Part shown: one piece after another, positions 6,003 through 60,836 of the stretch
Position numbering within the stretch: position 1 is the stretch's first letter
Layout of the letters: every line of letters begins with the position of its first letter
Virus record (IMG/VR): IMGVR_UViG_3300029413_000164
From: a virus
Reading direction: 5' to 3' (one strand)
DNA: 64,000 bases
Notes under the pieces: model-generated
The model's database searches: none
The model's input: the letters and a program-made list of their open reading frames with translations, nothing else
Told to the model about the DNA's origin: nothing
Made by a program: the position numbers and the translations under genes

Positions 6003-6410
6003 ATGAAATTAGATACAAATAATCATTCAGTGTTCATGTTGCATTATCATCTGATTATGTGCGTAAAATATCGAAATAAGGTAATAGATGATATTATTTC
6101 TAATCGTTTAAAAGAGATATTTGAAAAGATTGCTCCTACTTATAATATTGTATTAGAAGAGTGGAATCATGATATAGATCATGTACATATTTTGTTTAGG
6201 GGACAACCAAATACAGAAATCAGCAAATTCATCAATGCATATAAATCAGCAAGTAGCAGACTCATAAAGAAAGAATTTCCTCAAATACGTAAATCTTTAT
6301 GGAAAGAAATGTTCTGGTCACAGAGTTTTTGTCTACTGACTACAAGTGGAGTTACTGTAGATATTATTAAACAGTATATAGCATCACAGGGAAAGAAAAA
6401 TGGCAAATAA
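6003..6410 (+). CDS. tnpA: IS200-type Y1 (HUH) transposase
   Basis: 135-aa ORF with an HxH motif (HVHILF) and a C-terminal Tyr region (IIKQYIASQ). Confidence 0.8.
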   Translation: MKLDTNNHSVFMLHYHLIMCVKYRNKVIDDIISNRLKEIFEKIAPTYNIVLEEWNHDIDHVHILFRGQPNTEISKFINAYKSASSRLIKKEFPQIRKSLWKEMFWSQSFCLLTTSGVTVDIIKQYIASQGKKNGK

Positions 6411-7554
6411 AGCAATTAAATATCGCATATATCCTACAACTGAACGGAGAGTTATGTTTACTAAGACCTTTGGTTGTTGCCGCAAGGTCTATAATCTTAT
6501 GCTTGCAGATAAGATTGAGGGTTATAAAGCGACTGGGAAATTCCCTACTGTAACGCCTGCTAAGTATAAGGAAGATTATCCTTATCTTAAAGAAGTAGAC
6601 AGTCTTGCGCTTGCCAATAAACAGATGGATTTACAAGCAGCGTTTCGTAATAGATTCAATAAAAAACGTAAAAAGAAAAGTGAATTTCCTAAATTCAAAT
6701 CCGCAAAACATAGCCGCAAGTCTTATACTACGAATAATCAAAACGGCACAGTGGCTATTATAAATAATAAATATATCAAGTTACCTAAAATTGGTAAAGT
6801 GAAAGCCGTTATTCATCGTATTCCTAATGATAATTGGACTGTCAAGTCTGCTACTATATCACTAGCGTCAGATGGTAAGTATTATGCTTCTGTTCTTTTT
6901 GAATTTGATGAAATAGAAAATACCTATATAGCTGATAAAACTAACGCTATCGGATTAGATTATGCGTCTAATGGCTTATACGTAGATAATAATGGCAACG
7001 TAGGTACGAACCATAAGTATTATCGTGAAAGTTATGATAAGCTTGCCAAAGAACAACGCAAACTGTCTCGTATGCAAGGCTCTAAAAAGAATGAAGATAA
7101 GTCTAATAACTATATTAAACAGCTTCATAAAGTAAACAAAATTCATAGACATATTGCTAATCAACGTTTGGACAACTTACATAAAATATCTACTGAGATA
7201 GCCAATCAGTATGATGTTGTCTGCGTAGAGACGCTTAATATGAAAGCAATAGCAAATAAAAAATTTGGTAATGGTAAAGCTACTATGGATAACGGATATG
7301 GAATGCTTTTATCTATGCTTGAATATAAGCTATCTGATAGAAATAAGTATTTCGTAAAAGTGGATAAGTGGTTTCCGTCATCACAAATTTGTCATTGTTG
7401 TGGTACACGGCATCCAGAAATGAAGGATTTAGCTAATCGCAAAATGATATGTGATTGTGGTCTTATAATGAATCGTGACCAAAACGCAGCTATCAATATT
7501 TTGAATGAAGGATTACGCCTGCTTACTGAACGCTTGCTTAGTGAAGCGGCATAA
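6400..7554 (+). CDS. tnpB: TnpB (OrfB) RuvC-like protein
   Basis: 384-aa ORF with an N-terminal YRIYPT motif and a C-terminal zinc finger CHCCG...CDCG followed by DQNAAINI. Confidence 0.8.
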   Translation: MANKAIKYRIYPTTERRVMFTKTFGCCRKVYNLMLADKIEGYKATGKFPTVTPAKYKEDYPYLKEVDSLALANKQMDLQAAFRNRFNKKRKKKSEFPKFKSAKHSRKSYTTNNQNGTVAIINNKYIKLPKIGKVKAVIHRIPNDNWTVKSATISLASDGKYYASVLFEFDEIENTYIADKTNAIGLDYASNGLYVDNNGNVGTNHKYYRESYDKLAKEQRKLSRMQGSKKNEDKSNNYIKQLHKVNKIHRHIANQRLDNLHKISTEIANQYDVVCVETLNMKAIANKKFGNGKATMDNGYGMLLSMLEYKLSDRNKYFVKVDKWFPSSQICHCCGTRHPEMKDLANRKMICDCGLIMNRDQNAAINILNEGLRLLTERLLSEAA

Positions 7555-32737: not shown

Positions 32738-33010
32738 ATGTCAAAGACAGAGTTAGTCGCAGCAATTGCGGAGAAAACAGGACTTACAAAGAAGGACTCA
32801 GAGGCGGCAGTAAATGCATTCATTGGAACAGTAACAGAGCAGCTCAAAAAAGGCGAGAAGGTACAGCTTATCGGATTTGGTACATTTGAGGTATCTGAGA
32901 GAGCAGCAAGAACAGGAAGAAATCCACAGACTGGCGCTGATATGACAATTGCAGCATCTAAGGCTCCTAAGTTCAAGGCTGGAAAAGCACTTAAGGAATT
33001 GCTCAATTAA
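32738..33010 (+). CDS. hup: HU/IHF-family DNA-binding protein
   Basis: 90-aa ORF with a classic HU sequence (GFGTFEV...RNPQTG). Confidence 0.8.
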
Positions 33011-33823: not shown

Positions 33824-33895
33824 CGCAGGATACGTTAACGGCTAACCCCAAGGCTCATAACCTTTGGAATGCGGGTTCAAATCCCGCTCCTGCAA
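33824..33895 (+). tRNA. tRNA-like element with a CAU anticodon loop (possibly degenerate)
   Basis: Good T-arm (GCGGGTTCAAATCCCGC) and acceptor 3' strand, and a CTCATAA loop. The D-arm does not fold canonically. Confidence 0.3.
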
Positions 33896-33920
33896 CTAAG
33901 CCTTAAAAAGCTTTACATCC

Positions 33921-34218
33921 GGGGTTGTAAAGGTTTCGACAGGGTTACAAAAGTGCAGAATTCGCCCGAGTGATGACGCAATCATCAAAACTTAAAATTA
34001 AACGCAAACAATAGATGTTTAGCAGCAGCCTAATGGCTGCACCAAAACGTTCCAAGATAATGCTGGTAGGGGCTGAGGTTCAAAAACAAGCGTGTTAGAA
34101 GTTCTCTGTATACATAGGAACAGAGTGGTGGGCTAGACTGGACTACAGGCGCAAAAACGGCGTAAAGGTTCTGTATGAGTACTAATTCTGGACACGGGTT
34201 CGATTCCCGTCAGCTCCA
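33921..34218 (+). ncRNA. ssrA: tmRNA (SsrA)
   Basis: 5' end GGGGTTGTAAAGGTTTCGACAGGG matches the tmRNA consensus GGGGnnGnnnnGGnTTCGACAGGG. Internal tag-like reading frame ...ANNRCLAAA followed by TAA. 3' tRNA-like end GGACACGGGTTCGATTCCCGTCAGCTCCA. Confidence 0.65.
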
Positions 34219-34240
34219 TATCCGGCATGACCGGGAAAAT

Positions 34241-34312
34241 AGAAGGATAGTGTAAGTGGTAGCACAGTGGTCTCCAAAACCACAAATTTGGGTTCAAATC
34301 CCAATCTTTCTG
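34241..34312 (+). tRNA. tRNA-Trp (CCA)
   Basis: Manual cloverleaf: acceptor AGAAGGA/TCTTTCT, anticodon stem GTGGT/ACCAC with loop CTCCAAA, T-arm TTGGGTTCAAATCCCAA. Confidence 0.6.
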
Positions 34313-34385
34313 CTGCATGGGAAATCCTGTGCAACATAAGCAACCTTTCAAATATGTACAACGTGACAGCAATGCTGCCACGCAT

Positions 34386-34459
34386 GGCTCCGTGGTCTAG
34401 CTGGTTAGTGATACGGCCCTTTCAAGGCTGTGACGCGGGTTCAATTCCCGCCGGAGTCA
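34386..34459 (+). tRNA. tRNA-Glu (TTC)
   Basis: Acceptor GGCTCCG/CGGAGTC, anticodon stem CGGCC/GGCTG with loop CTTTCAA, T-arm GCGGGTTCAATTCCCGC. Confidence 0.6.
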
Positions 34460-34646
34460 TTCTGCCATTGTTTCCATTCTTTTGCGGTGGCAGACTCATA
34501 AAAACCTCATAATTATAAAAGAAGCAGGGCTAAGCTGCTTCGTCTCCCATCTGCCATCAGAGCAGCATTGCAGGTGCAGTTCCTGCAGGGAGATTTTGTC
34601 GGATAAGAAAGGTCTCTGCCGACTATTTTTTGATTCCGGACATTTA

Positions 34647-34720
34647 GTGCCCGTAGCTCAATTGGTTAGAGCATCCGGCTCATAACCGGACGGTCGAAGG
34701 TTCGAGTCCTTCCGGGCGCA
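34647..34720 (+). tRNA. tRNA-Met (CAT)
   Basis: Acceptor GTGCCCG/CGGGCGC, D-arm GCTCAATTGGTTAGAGC, anticodon stem TCCGG/CCGGA with loop CTCATAA, T-arm GAAGGTTCGAGTCCTTC. Confidence 0.65.
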
Positions 34721-55680: not shown

Positions 55681-56262
55681 ATGAACTATTATATAAGTGA
55701 CCTGCATCTGTTTCACGAAGCATCAATTCGCTTTGATAACAGGCCATTTGGCTCTTTGGATGAGATGCATGAGGCAGTTGTCAGCCGATGGAACAATAAA
55801 ATAAACAATGGAGATACAGTATACATCCTCGGTGACATGAGTATGCGCGGAAGGAAAGAAGACCTCATATCGCTTGTTGCTACATTAAAAGGTAAAAAAA
55901 TTCTTGTTAAAGGCAACCATGATGATGTGTCAGATTACAGATATAAGCAGCTCTTTTATGATGTATGCGATTACAGAGAGATACATGACTCATACGGTGG
56001 TAAGAATTATGACCTTGTACTGTGTCATTATCCTATATTTTCATGGAAAGGCATGAACAGAGGCACAATCCTGTTATACGGTCATACTCACAACAGTGCA
56101 GAGGACGTATATTTTCAAAAGTGTCTGGCAGGAATGGAAGAAAATGACTGTCGCCATGTAGGTGATAAGTCAATTCAGGCATACAATGTGGGCTGTATGA
56201 AGCCATGGATTGACTATGAACCAAGAAGTTTGAAAGAGATTGCAGGAGATTGCAGAATTTAA
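55681..56262 (+). CDS. Second metallophosphoesterase
   Basis: Motifs SDLHL, GDMSMRG, GNHDD and GHTH. Confidence 0.6.
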   Translation: MNYYISDLHLFHEASIRFDNRPFGSLDEMHEAVVSRWNNKINNGDTVYILGDMSMRGRKEDLISLVATLKGKKILVKGNHDDVSDYRYKQLFYDVCDYREIHDSYGGKNYDLVLCHYPIFSWKGMNRGTILLYGHTHNSAEDVYFQKCLAGMEENDCRHVGDKSIQAYNVGCMKPWIDYEPRSLKEIAGDCRI

Positions 56263-56525: not shown

Positions 56526-56593
56526 AATAATACTTAACTGAGGCAATCGGAAGTTTTATATCCGATCAACTCTTTCTTTATCTCGATTATAAT

Positions 56594-56630
56594 ATAAGAC
56601 GGCTGATTTTTCAACCGTCTTTTTTTTATA
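56594..56630 (+). terminator. Rho-independent terminator
   Basis: AAGACGG...CCGTCTT hairpin followed by a T8 run. Confidence 0.55.
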
Positions 56631-56850
56631 ATACAAAATCGACTTCTGTCTATGATGATACTTGACCGGCTGCACACACAAAACTTATAATTATTTGCAT
56701 AAAAAGAAGAATTTGGAGAAAACAGATGAAGAAAAGTTTTAACGAGGAGCAGATAAGAGAATTCATTTTTCACTTTTTTTCTGAAAAAATTTTTTAAGTT
56801 ACTTAGAGGTAGAAAAGAAAACCAGCAGTAGTAAATAGACAAATTTATCT

Positions 56851-56876
56851 ATTCGCATAATTTCAATTATGCGAAT
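56851..56876. promoter_or_regulatory. Perfect 10-6-10 palindrome (candidate recombinase core site, dif/att-like)
   Basis: ATTCGCATAA TTTCAA TTATGCGAAT, about 160 bp upstream of the tyrosine recombinase gene in an AT-rich noncoding stretch. Confidence 0.45.
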
Positions 56877-57036
56877 AACGAGATACTTTAAATACTACAT
56901 ATGGGGTTCTTGGCTTAATTTAGTCCTATATATGGTATATTGTAAATCATTACACGCTACATGTTGTATTGTAAAAAATGGTATTTCTTGTTATAATTAT
57001 TTTATAAAAACAGATTACATTTACGGAGGAAATTAT

Positions 57037-58152
57037 ATGGCCCGCGAATATAAAGACCAGAAAAATGCTGAAACTGAAGCAAAGATATACAATTTAAAAT
57101 TGATGCTGCCTGATTTCTGTGCAGGTTATATCAGGTCAATAGCTGGTTATACAAAGCCTTTGACACAGTTAGCTTACTTACAGCGTATACAGTTTTTCTT
57201 AACGTGGTTGCTCGATTACAATGTTTATTTTAACAAGAAATATGATTCAATTGAGCAGTTTACAATTCAGGATTTAGACAAGCTTAAAAAGGCTGATTTT
57301 GAAGAATTTCTAAATCATATACAGAAATATGGCGCAGTTTTAAAGGAAGAACTTGATGCCAGAATGCAGACCGGTAAATATATTGTGCCATCAAAGTCAT
57401 CTACTAGAAACAATTACTTAAGCGCTCTCCGTTCGTTATACAATTATTTTCTTGAGAATGACATTGTAGACAAGGCTCCTGTGCTTAAAATCAGACAGAA
57501 AAAGGTTGACAAAACCATCCCCATTGCTCTTACAGACAGACAGGCTGAGTCAATATATGACACAATTCTTGGCGGTTCAGAACAAATCAGTGCAAGGCAG
57601 GAAGCTTCAAGGATAATTACGTCAGCAAGAGATCTTGCCATCTACACTCTCGCACTGCACACCGGAATACGTGTATCAGAGCTTGTTTCTCTTGATGTAC
57701 ATGATATTAATACTGATGAACATTGTTTCAAAATTATCAGAAAACGTGGAAATGAAGATATTGTTTACTTTGACAATACAACTGAGAATGTACTGTTGGA
57801 TTGGCTCGATGTACGTAAAAATATGAAGGAAACGCTTGGTATTGCAGATGATGAAGATGCTCTTTTTGTGTCAACAAAAGGCGTAAAGAAAGGCACAAGA
57901 TTGTCTGTACGAAGCGTTGAAATAATGGTGAAAAAGTATGCGCAAATTGCAGTTCCTGAAGTAACAAACTTCCATGCGCATTCTCTCAGAAGCTCATGTG
58001 CCACCAGCATATATGATAAAAGCCTTGATTTGGTATACACTCAGAGCCTACTGGGGCATGCAAATATCAGTACTACCATGAGATATGTGAAAAATGATGA
58101 GAAGAAGAAGAAAGAAAATAGAAATCTTCTGGACAAAAATAAAAATGAGTAA
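57037..58152 (+). CDS. Tyrosine site-specific recombinase/integrase (XerC/D-like)
   Basis: Conserved R...HxxR...Y context: ALHTGIRVSEL, HAHSLRSS, LLGHANISTTMRYV. RBS GGAGGA. No element-type promoter upstream. Confidence 0.75.
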   Translation: MAREYKDQKNAETEAKIYNLKLMLPDFCAGYIRSIAGYTKPLTQLAYLQRIQFFLTWLLDYNVYFNKKYDSIEQFTIQDLDKLKKADFEEFLNHIQKYGAVLKEELDARMQTGKYIVPSKSSTRNNYLSALRSLYNYFLENDIVDKAPVLKIRQKKVDKTIPIALTDRQAESIYDTILGGSEQISARQEASRIITSARDLAIYTLALHTGIRVSELVSLDVHDINTDEHCFKIIRKRGNEDIVYFDNTTENVLLDWLDVRKNMKETLGIADDEDALFVSTKGVKKGTRLSVRSVEIMVKKYAQIAVPEVTNFHAHSLRSSCATSIYDKSLDLVYTQSLLGHANISTTMRYVKNDEKKKKENRNLLDKNKNE

Positions 58153-58156
58153 AAAC

Positions 58157-58190
58157 ACAGCGGCATCATAGTCAGGATGCCGCTTTTCCA
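58157..58190 (+). terminator. Rho-independent terminator
   Basis: AGCGGCATC...GATGCCGCT hairpin followed by TTTTCC. Confidence 0.55.
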
Positions 58191-58303
58191 TTGCCTATTG
58201 TACATGTTGTATATATTATATATTTTATGTATATTATACAAGTTGTATAAGTTGTCCATTTTGATTGTGCGCAATGTCTCTTCACTGCTCTTTTGCTTTT
58301 CTT

Positions 58304-58910: not shown

Positions 58911-59019
58911 AAGACGGCAATCAGCATAAGATACTACATTTAGGAGGCATTCTATCATATCAGTCAGAACACCACGTCTATAACACCTGCATAGGCGTGG
59001 ATGAATGGCCGTGCATTCT

Positions 59020-59070
59020 TATATGGAAACCTATAAACGGAAATATAAAAAATCATACTTATGTCAGAAA
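59020..59070 (+). promoter_or_regulatory. Element-type bipartite promoter
   Basis: CTTATATGGAAACC, about 19 nt, then AAAAAATCATACTTATGTCAG. Lies 25 bp upstream of the TnpB-remnant ATG. Confidence 0.55.
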
Positions 59071-59083
59071 GGAGTGCAGCCAT

Positions 59084-59552
59084 ATGTCTTACAGGGTAAT
59101 CCAGTGTCAGATAGCACAGGATAACTTAATATATGACTATTGTGACAGCAATGCTCAGAAAGCAAAGCTGTTGTATAACGCTGCACTCTTTCGTATCAGA
59201 CAGATTTTCACGGGCTGGGATAAAGACTCTCGTACTGACAATGAGAAAGAAGCCTTTGCTGAAGTAACTCTTTTACAGCAGACTTATCCCTCCATTAAGG
59301 TAAAAAGAGTCATTTCATACTGTCACCTTGAGAAACTGATGCGTGTTACGCATAACCCGCAGTCTTTACCGCTGCTCTAACGGCATGATCATTAATGCCG
59401 ACTGCAACGGCGCTGCAAATATCATGCGCAAGGCCATACCTGATGCATGGAATGGCATAACTGATTTTTCATTCCTCGCATCGCCTAAAGTGTCAGGATT
59501 CCACGAACTGAATCCCCTAAGCATTCCTGTAAAAGGGATAGCGGCCGCGTGA
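59084..59552 (+). pseudogene. Decayed TnpB (IS605/IS1341-type) remnant: N-terminal fragment joined to a frameshifted C-terminal zinc-finger fragment
   Basis: N-terminus MSYRVIQCQIAQ...KLLYNAALFRIRQ resembles the TnpB N-terminus YRIYPT...VYN. The shifted-frame CSNGMIINADCNGAANIMRKA matches the TnpB C-terminus C.CG...D.NAAINI. The RuvC core is absent. Confidence 0.5.
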
Positions 59553-60078: not shown

Positions 60079-60477
60079 ATGAGTAAACACAAATCAATAC
60101 CCACAGCAACGCGCAAAAAGCTGTATGAAAAATACAATCACAGATGTGCTTACTGTGGATGCGAACTGGAATACAAAGACATGCAGATAGACCATGTTGA
60201 AAGTGTTTATCGCAACAACGATATTGCGCAGACAATGTCGGAAAAAGAAATGTATGACGAGAGTAATCTCCTTCCAGCGTGCAGACAGTGTAATTTCTAC
60301 AAGTCTACATTCACCATTGAACAGTTCAGGCAGAGACTAAAAAATGTCATGATGCCTAATTTGCAAAAAGATTTCCGCTACAGACTGGCAGCTAAATACG
60401 GACTGGTCGAGGAAACAGATAAAAGTATCATATTTTATTATGAAACTTTAGAGAAAGGAAATTCAAAAATATGCTAA
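60079..60477 (+). CDS. HNH endonuclease
   Basis: HNH core: CAYCG...DH...N...CRQCN. RBS AAAGGAG. Confidence 0.7.
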   Translation: MSKHKSIPTATRKKLYEKYNHRCAYCGCELEYKDMQIDHVESVYRNNDIAQTMSEKEMYDESNLLPACRQCNFYKSTFTIEQFRQRLKNVMMPNLQKDFRYRLAAKYGLVEETDKSIIFYYETLEKGNSKIC

Positions 60478-60836
60478 ATATCGAATATACGCATGAAACA
60501 ATTCAAAAATTAGCAGAGGGCATGAATGAGTATTTACACATTGATTTAAGTACACCTATGACTCTCGAAAAACTTACAAAAGCAATTATTTATATTGGAA
60601 TTGATATTGAATATGTCAATATAACAGATGCGAATAATCCTTTATTTGTAATGTCTGCGGAATATAAGAAAAGAGGCTGTCGTGATTATGTAATAAGAAT
60701 TAATAAGAACAAAGACGAAAAAGACTTGATTTTCCAAGTGGCGGCAGAATTTGGAAAAATTATCTTGTATGAACTGCCGGAAGATATAGAGAAATACGAA
60801 AAGGAGAAAGACAATGAAAGTCAGGGAACTGCTTAA
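60471..60836 (+). CDS. Hypothetical protein, 121 aa
   Basis: ORF overlapping the HNH stop, consistent with translational coupling. Confidence 0.45.
   Translation: MLNIEYTHETIQKLAEGMNEYLHIDLSTPMTLEKLTKAIIYIGIDIEYVNITDANNPLFVMSAEYKKRGCRDYVIRINKNKDEKDLIFQVAAEFGKIILYELPEDIEKYEKEKDNESQGTA

What the first reader, a model, noticed from the sequence alone, without database searches (positions are those of the whole stretch)
56530..58152. Tyrosine recombinase preceded by a perfect 10-6-10 palindrome in a 400-bp AT-rich noncoding region
The sequence ATTCGCATAA-TTTCAA-TTATGCGAAT at 56851-56876 has the geometry of a tyrosine-recombinase core site, with binding arms of about 10-11 bp around a spacer of 6-8 bp as in dif and lox sites.
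- It lies about 160 bp upstream of an XerC/D-like recombinase gene that lacks the element promoter.
- It is a candidate attP core, or a dif-like dimer-resolution site if the element replicates as a plasmid, that is, a phage-plasmid lifestyle.
Basis: partly seen in the sequence, partly recalled or inferred. Interest (0 to 1): 0.55.

Follow-up and report, generated by a model that had tools for sequence, protein, structure and literature searches.

The report
dif-like attachment site of integrating element
The palindrome is real and is the spot where this very large phage-like element joins the chromosome of the gut bacterium Agathobacter rectalis, using a site and enzyme that look copied from the bacterium's own chromosome-untangling (Xer/dif) system.

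Summary
The palindrome exists as described. It is really 13-2-13, or 11-6-11 in recombinase terms (56850-56877), and is the only perfect palindrome of that size in 64 kb.

**Conservation.** In 15 distinct related upstream sequences the 20 arm bases never vary, 3 of the 6 centre bases vary, and 40% of the flanking columns vary.

**Family link.** The arms match the XerC-type arm of bacterial dif sites. The adjacent 371-aa recombinase is Xer-type, closest to XerS but below that family's cut-off. The same palindrome sits beside homologous recombinases in many bacteria and archaea. In several Firmicutes it lies exactly at the replication terminus.

**Decisive evidence.** In six independent long contigs (297 kb to 1.34 Mb), identity to the window stops at base 56877. 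It then switches to Agathobacter rectalis housekeeping genes at a GC-skew switch.

The palindrome is therefore the element's attachment (attP) core.

**Open points.**
- The second junction was not found.
- The one empty host locus I retrieved has no clear dif-like site.
- The host-side centre (TGTTGA) never matches the free form.
- No plasmid evidence was found.
- No virion genes were recognised in the window.

The parts
56850..56877 (.). attP core: left arm TATTCGCATAA (56850-56860), centre TTTCAA (56861-56866), right arm TTATGCGAATA (56867-56877)
   Evidence: Perfect palindrome, unique in the window. Arms are invariant and the centre is variable in relatives. The element/host junction lies here in 6 contigs.
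57037..58152 (+). Xer-type tyrosine recombinase, 371 aa (R212, H315, R318, H341, Y350; K236 is a candidate)
   Evidence: Pfam PF00589 scores 106.5 bits. The best NCBIfam match is XerS, full length, 164 bits, below the 267 cut-off. The catalytic motifs align with XerA, XerD and XerH.
56969..56997 (+). Predicted promoter of the recombinase (TTGTAA-17-TATAAT with TG extended -10)
   Evidence: Consensus scan. The block is invariant in relatives. This is a prediction only.
58159..58184 (+). Terminator-like hairpin ending the recombinase module
   Evidence: Homology of the portable module to other contexts ends at 58133-58170.
56903..56945 (.). Conserved block (GGGGTTCTTGGCTTAATTTAGTCC...) between attP and the promoter; role unknown
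   Evidence: Low variation in 15 distinct sequences. A similar G-rich block occurs at the chromosomal homologue L041. No Rfam match.
56662..56798 (+). Promoter-like site (TTGACC-18-TATAAT, 56662-56691) and short ORF (56727-56798) reading toward attP
   Evidence: The ORF frame is not kept in close relatives (23 aa against 34 aa), so it is probably not a conserved coding gene.
56597..56626 (+). Hairpin plus T-run resembling the terminator after dxs at the host integration locus
   Evidence: Inverted repeat I18. It is the window's best match (20/21, E 0.001) to the empty host locus L168. The link is weak.
56622..56978 (.). Segment bounded by 16/18 inverted repeats (56622-56639 and 56961-56978) that contains attP; seen inverted in one GenBank contig
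   Evidence: (I4). The flipped form is seen in 1 of about 60 loci.

Best explanation
The 28-bp palindrome is the attachment (attP) core of a large mobile element. The element is labelled bacteriophage in GenBank virome records. Contigs with the intact site are 95-322 kb.

**Proposed mechanism.** Two copies of the adjacent Xer-type recombinase bind the identical 11-bp arms and cut at the edges of the 6-bp centre. Recombination with a dif-like site at the replication terminus of Agathobacter rectalis (between dxs and a cytidylate-kinase-like gene) inserts the element.

**Origin.** The site-plus-gene module looks like a captured copy of a single-recombinase dif/Xer module found on Firmicute chromosomes.

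**Shown:**
- the site and its conservation pattern
- its dif-type sequence
- its linkage to this recombinase family
- one element/host junction exactly at the site
- the terminus-like position of the host locus

**Inferred:**
- that the element's own recombinase, rather than a host Xer, catalyses the reaction
- that crossover is at the left-arm/centre boundary (56860|56861), exchanging one pair of strands, so the centres need not match
For: **Junction.** Six contigs from six samples and several assemblers (L149, L152-L156; 297 kb to 1.34 Mb) match the window at 98.5-98.9% up to base 56877. They then continue into Cmk-like, RluD-like, LspA, SepF and YlmE genes.

**Host.** The Cmk-like protein is 99% identical to the representative of a 90%-identity cluster that includes A. 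rectalis WP_118369063.1.

**Terminus.** At the prophage-free locus L168 the genes converge and GC skew flips from +0.06 to -0.13.

**Conservation.** Arms 0/20 variable, centre 3/6, other columns 84/210.

**Centres.**

| Context | Contigs | Centres |
|---|---|---|
| Window-type element DNA on both sides | 44 | TTTCAA, TTTCGA, TTCCAA, TATCAA, TTTTAA, TTACAA |
| Element DNA on the recombinase side only | 17 | TTTCAA, TATCAA, TTTCGA |
| Element/host junction | 6 | TGTTGA in all |

No non-junction site carries TGTTGA. TGTTGA is also the centre of the site next to the chromosomal homologue in Agathobacter sp..

**Symmetric changes in homologues.** More distant homologues keep the palindrome with matching changes in both arms: L041 (72% identical) has AGTCGCATAA and L042 (58%) has TGTCGCATAA.

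**Distribution.** TCGCATAAT-N4-ATTATGCGA occurs in 92 species genomes. In 26 of the first 80 loci a homologous recombinase lies within 500 bp.

**Chromosomal dif.** In L050, L110, L091, L098, L080, L089 and L095 the site sits where skew and gene direction flip.

**Recombinase.** Xer-type with a complete catalytic set.
Against: - The other junction (host-site-recombinase) was not found in 20 places examined.
- The one prophage-free allele retrieved (L168) has only a poor match to a dif-type site at the homologous position (GTGTTTAATAATATAAAATAGCGGAG). A proper empty attB has therefore not been seen.
- The six junction contigs may descend from one or two old insertions rather than six events.
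- The junction centre differs from every free-form centre. This needs a non-canonical exchange or an unsampled attP variant.
- Nothing shows which recombinase acts.
- No virion genes were recognised in the window.
Confidence: 0.8

Rival explanations
1. The site is a dif-like attP, but the host's own Xer recombinase does the integration, as for IMEX elements. The element's recombinase would serve another task such as resolving multimers of the replicating element.
For: An Agathobacter isolate genome and a related metagenomic contig encode a 72%-identical recombinase next to a near-identical site: 11/12 bases per arm, centre TGTTGA as in the junctions. Known dif-targeting elements use host Xer (PMC12715192; PMC5357621).
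Against: The element keeps an intact, promoter-equipped recombinase gene right next to the site in every free-form contig. Site and gene also travel together between unrelated contexts.
Confidence: 0.15
2. The palindrome is only a multimer-resolution or circularisation site (like loxP/Cre of P1, or cer) for an element that lives as a plasmid. The junction contigs would be incidental.
For: The module descends from a chromosome-dimer-resolution system. Most contigs carry the site intact. A precedent exists in Bacillus Tyroviruses: Xer-like genes, an 11-6-11 palindrome and plasmid-type genes (PMC9703825).
Against: Six independent junctions with chromosomal DNA fall exactly at the site. No partition or plasmid replication genes were found in 64 kb. 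No close relative is in the plasmid collection. Resolution could still be a second function.
Confidence: 0.07
3. The palindrome is an operator or a DNA/RNA hairpin that regulates the recombinase gene, not a crossover site.
For: Perfect dyad symmetry and symmetric compensatory changes fit a dimeric DNA binder or a hairpin equally well. The strand folds much better than shuffles (z -4.9). A promoter-like site upstream reads through it.
Against: It lies about 90 bp upstream of the -35 of the predicted recombinase promoter. Its distance to the gene ranges from 40 bp to 2.3 kb in relatives. Some chromosomal copies sit at termini with no recombinase homologue detected in the 8-kb locus. The element/host breakpoint is at the site.
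Confidence: 0.05
4. The site lies in a 340-bp invertible switch (fimS-like) flipped by the recombinase at the 16/18 inverted repeats 56622-56639 and 56961-56978.
For: GenBank MT836204.1 joins the reverse complement of 56741-56622 to 56964 onward, exactly at the repeat.
Against: Only 1 of about 60 loci is flipped, and the reciprocal junction was never seen. The flipped piece is 93% identical while its flanks are 99% identical. The left repeat lies outside the portable module. Virome amplification can create such inverted chimeras (my own knowledge).
Confidence: 0.05

Closest known systems
IMEX elements (CTXphi, VGJphi, TLCphi, gonococcal genetic island; dif-targeting microviruses and DJR phages)
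   Same: A dif-like attP, insertion at a terminus-located dif-type site, and a junction that keeps a dif-type sequence. CTXphi-type integration with a single strand-pair exchange (my own knowledge) would also explain a junction centre that differs from the free form.
   Different: IMEX elements are defined as lacking their own integrase and using host XerC/D (PMC12715192). This element carries its own Xer-type gene next to the site. The element is far larger (intact-site contigs 95-322 kb), and both arms of its site are XerC-type.
XerS/difSL of streptococci and lactococci; XerH/difH of Helicobacter and Campylobacter
   Same: A single recombinase of about 355-370 aa with its site immediately beside the gene as one module (PMC5357621). 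XerS is the best-scoring family, aligned end to end.
   Different: The score is 164 bits against the 267 cut-off. The site is a classical 11-6-11 dif with CGCATAA/TTATGCG arms, not the 31-bp difSL with its 11-bp centre. Here the module is on a mobile element and is used, at least, for integration.
Cre/loxP of phage P1 and relatives
   Same: A symmetric two-arm site with an asymmetric centre close to the gene of a simple tyrosine recombinase that has no arm-type sites (my own knowledge).
   Different: loxP is 13-8-13 and serves plasmid-prophage maintenance. Here a chromosomal junction is seen and no plasmid genes were found.
Tyrovirus gp50 (Bacillus phages of about 169 kb)
   Same: A large temperate phage group. 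[quoted passage not shown]
   Different: That site was proposed from sequence alone, and no junction is reported in the passages I read. Its sequence was not compared here. The host is Bacillus, and the site lies downstream of the gene.

Membership tests
Tyrosine recombinase, Xer-type (simple, no arm-binding domain) | Catalytic domain with the Arg-His-x-x-Arg-His/Trp-Tyr set | tested here: met
   PF00589 scores 106.5 bits against a cut-off of 27.1. R212, H315, R318, H341 and Y350 align with XerA, XerD and XerH. The catalytic Lys (K236) is a guess.
Tyrosine recombinase, Xer-type (simple, no arm-binding domain) | Two-domain protein with no extra N-terminal arm-site-binding domain | tested here: met
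   The XerS model aligns residues 10-367 to positions 3-358 of 360. A weak SAM-like N-terminal domain is detected. No structure was predicted.
XerS (NCBIfam NF003462 equivalog) | Score at or above the curated cut-off | tested here: not met
   164.3 bits against 267. Chromosomal homologues also fall below the cut-off (164-193 bits).
XerS (NCBIfam NF003462 equivalog) | Cognate 31-bp difSL site with an 11-bp centre | tested here: not met
   The site is 11-6-11 with CGCATAA/TTATGCG inner arms. difSL is described in PMC5357621.
dif-type core site | 28 bp: two 11-bp inverted arms around 6 bp, with ..CATAA / TTATG.. inner arms and low G+C | tested here: met
   TATTCGCATAA-TTTCAA-TTATGCGAATA. The left arm shares 10/11 bases with P. 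aeruginosa dif GATTCGCATAA.
dif-type core site | Distinct XerC and XerD arms (right arm TTATGTTAAAT type) | tested here: not met
   Both arms are the same XerC-like sequence, as expected for a single recombinase.
Temperate-element attP | The element/host junction falls in the site | tested here: met
   Six contigs switch from element to A. rectalis DNA at 56877.
Temperate-element attP | Second junction, and an empty attB sharing the core | tested here: inconclusive
   The second junction was not found. The empty allele L168 has only a degenerate match.
IMEX | dif-like attP, and insertion at the host dif | tested here: inconclusive
   attP is dif-like. The host locus is at a skew and gene-direction switch. 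That the locus is the host's working dif is not shown.
IMEX | No recombinase of its own | tested here: not met
   A recombinase gene lies 160 bp from the site.
Invertible promoter switch (fimS type) | Both orientations present in populations | tested here: not met
   1 flipped in about 60, with no reciprocal junction.
Phage-plasmid multimer resolution (Cre/lox type) | Plasmid replication and partition genes; an extrachromosomal prophage | tested here: inconclusive
   None were found in the 64-kb window. The rest of the element was not available.
Tailed bacteriophage | Terminase, portal and major capsid genes | tested here: inconclusive
   None were recognised in the window. The 'tail' hits come from a protein with an NlpC/P60 domain. 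GenBank virome records match at 95-99%.

The most novel reading that the evidence does not exclude
The element carries a captured host chromosome-dimer-resolution module: a single XerS-like recombinase plus a symmetric dif. It uses this module to insert at the replication terminus of A. rectalis, leaving dif-type sites at its ends. Only one strand pair would be exchanged, so the centre need not match the host's. Lysogeny would then place a foreign Xer/dif pair at the terminus, where it could replace or interfere with the host's own dimer resolution.
Probability: 0.25. Interest if true: 0.75.

Novelty: new variant of a known kind. Interest (0 to 1): 0.6.

Why it matters
- It gives a base-precise attachment site, a host (Agathobacter rectalis, a dominant human gut species) and a chromosomal target for a very large, widespread gut element. 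One of its proteins is indexed in over 1000 blocks of the assembly collection.
- Large gut phages are rarely seen integrated: 13 of 518 genomes over 200 kb in one catalogue (PMC8241571).
- It is a dif-targeting element that brings its own Xer-type enzyme. This bridges the classical integrase/attP and IMEX strategies.
- The mismatch between free-form and junction centres makes the strand-exchange mechanism directly testable.
- The comparison also exposes a gene-linked, symmetric dif with an XerS-like recombinase at the termini of several Firmicutes. My searches found no paper describing this.

Tried and rejected
**Invertible switch.** The inversion seen in MT836204.1 looked at first like a fimS-type switch. 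I rejected it as the main story after 1 of about 60 loci proved flipped.

**Searches that found little.**
- IMG/VR held no relative of the recombinase, no flipped junction, and only 10 copies of the palindrome motif, one of them near a recombinase.
- Rfam found nothing in the region.
- The plasmid collection held no close relative. The 252-kb A. rectalis plasmid matches only at the HU gene.

**Other ideas rejected.**
- Hodor megaplasmids (PMC12934698) were considered because of the surface-protein genes and missing terminase. Their G+C (45-47%) and their features do not match this element, and none of my search terms occurs in that paper.
- Protelomerase target: rejected. The enzyme is an ordinary 371-aa Xer-type recombinase and the centre is not palindromic.
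- L011-type contexts as the missing second junction: rejected. Their homology starts 43 bp left of the palindrome and ends at the recombinase stop.

**Second junction.** Look-ups of the 129-aa neighbour and of the recombinase itself gave only intact-site contigs.

**Literature.** A search for XerS in Clostridia was uninformative.

Full report
**Observation.** The sequence ATTCGCATAA-TTTCAA-TTATGCGAAT is at 56851-56876. The dyad is longer than reported. It has 13-nt perfect arms with 2 nt between them (56850-56877). Read as a recombinase site, it has 11-bp arms around a 6-bp centre. It is the only perfect inverted repeat with arms of 13 or more in the window, and 30 shuffles gave none. The 28-mer is unique. 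The recombinase gene is 57037-58152 (371 aa; Pfam Phage_integrase 1.7e-30), 160 bp downstream of the palindrome. The noncoding region is 544 bp at 29% G+C. A sigma-70-type promoter with an extended -10 (56969-56997) precedes the gene, and a hairpin terminator (58159-58184) follows it.

**Conservation.** I collected about 70 related loci from metagenome and assembly collections.
- In 15 distinct upstream sequences, none of the 20 arm positions varies. Three of the 6 centre positions vary, and 84 of 210 other columns vary.
- The centres seen where window-type element DNA lies on both sides are TTTCAA (30), TTTCGA (6), TTCCAA (3), TATCAA (2), TTTTAA (2) and TTACAA (1).
- The stretch from about 56752/56807 to 58133/58170 contains the palindrome, a conserved block, the promoter, the gene and the terminator. 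It occurs in at least three otherwise unrelated contexts, so it behaves as a portable module.

**What kind of site and enzyme.**
- The recombinase has the Xer catalytic motifs (R212, H315-x-x-R318, H341, Y350). Its nearest solved relatives are XerA, XerD and XerH.
- The best NCBIfam match is XerS, aligned end to end. At 164 bits it is below the 267-bit cut-off, so it is XerS-like and not XerS.
- The arms equal the XerC-type arm of bacterial dif sites, for example P. aeruginosa GATTCGCATAA-TGTATA-TTATGTTAAAT and H. influenzae ATTTCGCATAA.. (PMC2731167). Both arms here are of that type, as expected for a single recombinase.
- More distant homologues keep the palindrome upstream, with changes mirrored in both arms. 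L041 (72% identity) has TTAGTCGCATAA-TGTTGA-TTATGCGACTAA. L042 (58%) has ATTATGTCGCATAA-TATCAA-TTATGCGACATAAT.
- A 63% homologue carries its palindrome 2.3 kb away. A 49% homologue has none in the 7-kb locus fetched.

**Wider distribution.**
- A scan of one genome per species for TCGCATAAT-N4-ATTATGCGA found 92 loci in very diverse bacteria and archaea. In 26 of the first 80, a homologue of the recombinase lies within 500 bp.
- In Eubacterium yurii, Peptoanaerobacter, Criibacterium, Erysipelotrichaceae and a Clostridiales genome, the palindrome sits exactly where GC skew changes sign and gene direction converges. In E. yurii this is at 51.5% of a 2.49-Mb scaffold. These are chromosomal dif sites.
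- In Blautia, the site and gene follow PBP2-RodA-DacB.
- In an Agathobacter isolate, a 72%-identical recombinase has the site 110 bp upstream.
- The module in the window is therefore a relative of a gene-linked, single-recombinase dif/Xer system of Firmicute chromosomes.

**Decisive evidence.**
- I looked up contigs that encode the window's 193-aa phosphoesterase (55681-56262). This returned ten long contigs. Four have the window's arrangement.
- In the other six, identity to the window (98.5-98.9%) runs to base 56877, the last base of the palindrome, and then stops. These are L149 and L152-L156, 297 kb to 1.34 Mb, from six samples and several assemblers.
- Next come about 300 bp and then Cmk-like, RluD-like, LspA, SepF and YlmE genes.
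- The Cmk-like protein is 99% identical to the representative of a 90%-identity cluster that contains Agathobacter rectalis proteins.
- In a contig without the element (L168), dxs and the Cmk-like gene converge here and GC skew flips from +0.06 to -0.13. The insertion point is therefore terminus-like.
- In lysogens the element's genes and skew continue the polarity of the adjoining replichore.
- Identity between the element's site and a host dif-type site is interrupted by the differing centre, leaving runs far shorter than assembler k-mers (my own knowledge of typical k-mer sizes). A repeated misjoin is therefore very unlikely.

**Mechanism and its weak points.**
- All six junction sites read TATTCGCATAA-TGTTGA-TTATGCGAATA-GGTAGTG.. 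One of them has TAGTCGCATAA as its left arm.
- TGTTGA was never seen in the 44 sites with window-type DNA on both sides, nor in 17 further sites with element DNA on the recombinase side only. It is, however, the centre of the site next to the Agathobacter chromosomal homologue.
- The simplest reading is that the left arm comes from the element, and the centre plus right arm come from a host dif-type site. That places the crossover at 56860|56861. It suggests exchange of one strand pair with the centres not needing to match, as for some Xer-dependent integrations. This is inference.
- Alternatives are an unsampled attP variant, or descent of all six contigs from one or two old insertions.
- The second junction was not found.
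- The one empty allele retrieved has only a degenerate match at the homologous position.
- Which recombinase acts is untested.

**Nature of the element.**
- The window encodes a PolIII-alpha-type polymerase, an exonuclease subunit, a RecD-like helicase, SSB, a sigma factor, HU, a tmRNA, four tRNAs, TnpB and large surface-repeat proteins.
- No terminase, portal or capsid gene was recognised in the window.
- GenBank virome contigs labelled 'Bacteriophage sp.' match at 95-99%.
- Intact-site contigs are 95-322 kb, with several between 210 and 233 kb.
- I call it a large phage-like element. Its virion status is open.

**Comparison and novelty.**
- It works like a phage attP with an adjacent integrase, and like an IMEX in mimicking dif. 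IMEX elements are defined as lacking a recombinase, and this element has one.
- It resembles XerS/difSL and XerH/difH in having site and gene as one module. It fails the XerS score and has a different site.
- Tyroviruses offer a sequence-only precedent for an 11-6-11 palindrome beside an Xer-like phage gene.
- I rate it a new variant of a known kind.

Noticed in passing
window 56622-56978; L001 1-125: GenBank MT836204.1 carries the left part of this 340-bp segment in reverse orientation, joined at a 16/18 inverted repeat. The segment contains attP. Only 1 of about 60 loci shows this, and the flipped piece is 93% identical while its flanks are 99% identical. It is either a real inversion, which would reverse attP polarity, or an amplification chimera.
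   Followed up: partly
L050, L110, L091, L098, L080, L089, L095, L100, L122, L127, L042: Several Firmicutes have a symmetric dif (TCGCATAAT-N4-ATTATGCGA) at the GC-skew and gene-direction switch. These include Peptostreptococcaceae, Erysipelotrichaceae and Lachnospiraceae such as Blautia and Agathobacter. An XerS-like recombinase gene often lies beside the site. This looks like a single-recombinase dimer-resolution system, and my searches found no paper describing it.
   Followed up: partly
window 33824-34720: The element encodes a tmRNA (33921-34218, tag ANNRCLAAA) and four tRNAs (Met, Trp, Glu, Met).
   Followed up: no
window 32738-33010: An HU-family DNA-binding protein gene (Pfam 4e-37). 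It is 74-83% identical at DNA level to Lachnospiraceae hup genes, including the one on the A. rectalis 252-kb plasmid NZ_CP143948.1.
   Followed up: no
window 6400-7554 and 58997-59552: A TnpB/IS605 OrfB gene lies at 6400-7554. A fragment with a weak TnpB-type match lies just right of the recombinase module. Relatives L151, L162, L170, L171, L174 and L178 have a full 443-459-aa copy at that second place, so it is a hotspot for insertion and loss.
   Followed up: no
window 56597-56626: This hairpin terminator is the window's best match (20/21, E 0.001) to the terminator after dxs, on the left side of the empty integration locus in A. rectalis (L168). It may be host DNA picked up beside attP.
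   Followed up: partly
window 56903-56945: A strongly conserved block (GGGGTTCTTGGCTTAATTTAGTCC...) lies between attP and the recombinase promoter, with a similar G-rich block at the chromosomal homologue L041. There is no Rfam match and its role is unknown.
   Followed up: no
window 58196-58262: An AT-rich intergenic stretch with 9-bp-spaced repeats and a third copy of TACATGTTGTAT (also at 56958-56969). It is conserved in relatives of the element but absent from the portable module in other contexts.
   Followed up: no
L100/L122 against L021-L024: The Blautia chromosomal site (AAG-TATTCGCATAATATCAATTATGCGAATA-CTT) is identical over 28 bp to the site of a sister lineage of the element (recombinase 85-89% identical). 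The Blautia recombinase itself is only 35-37% identical. This may reflect host-matched sites or may be coincidence.
   Followed up: partly
window 60471-60836: An IrrE/ImmA-type M78 peptidase domain (weak, 1e-4) is encoded by the gene immediately after an HNH endonuclease gene. This protease family is associated with switch regulation in temperate elements (my own knowledge).
   Followed up: no
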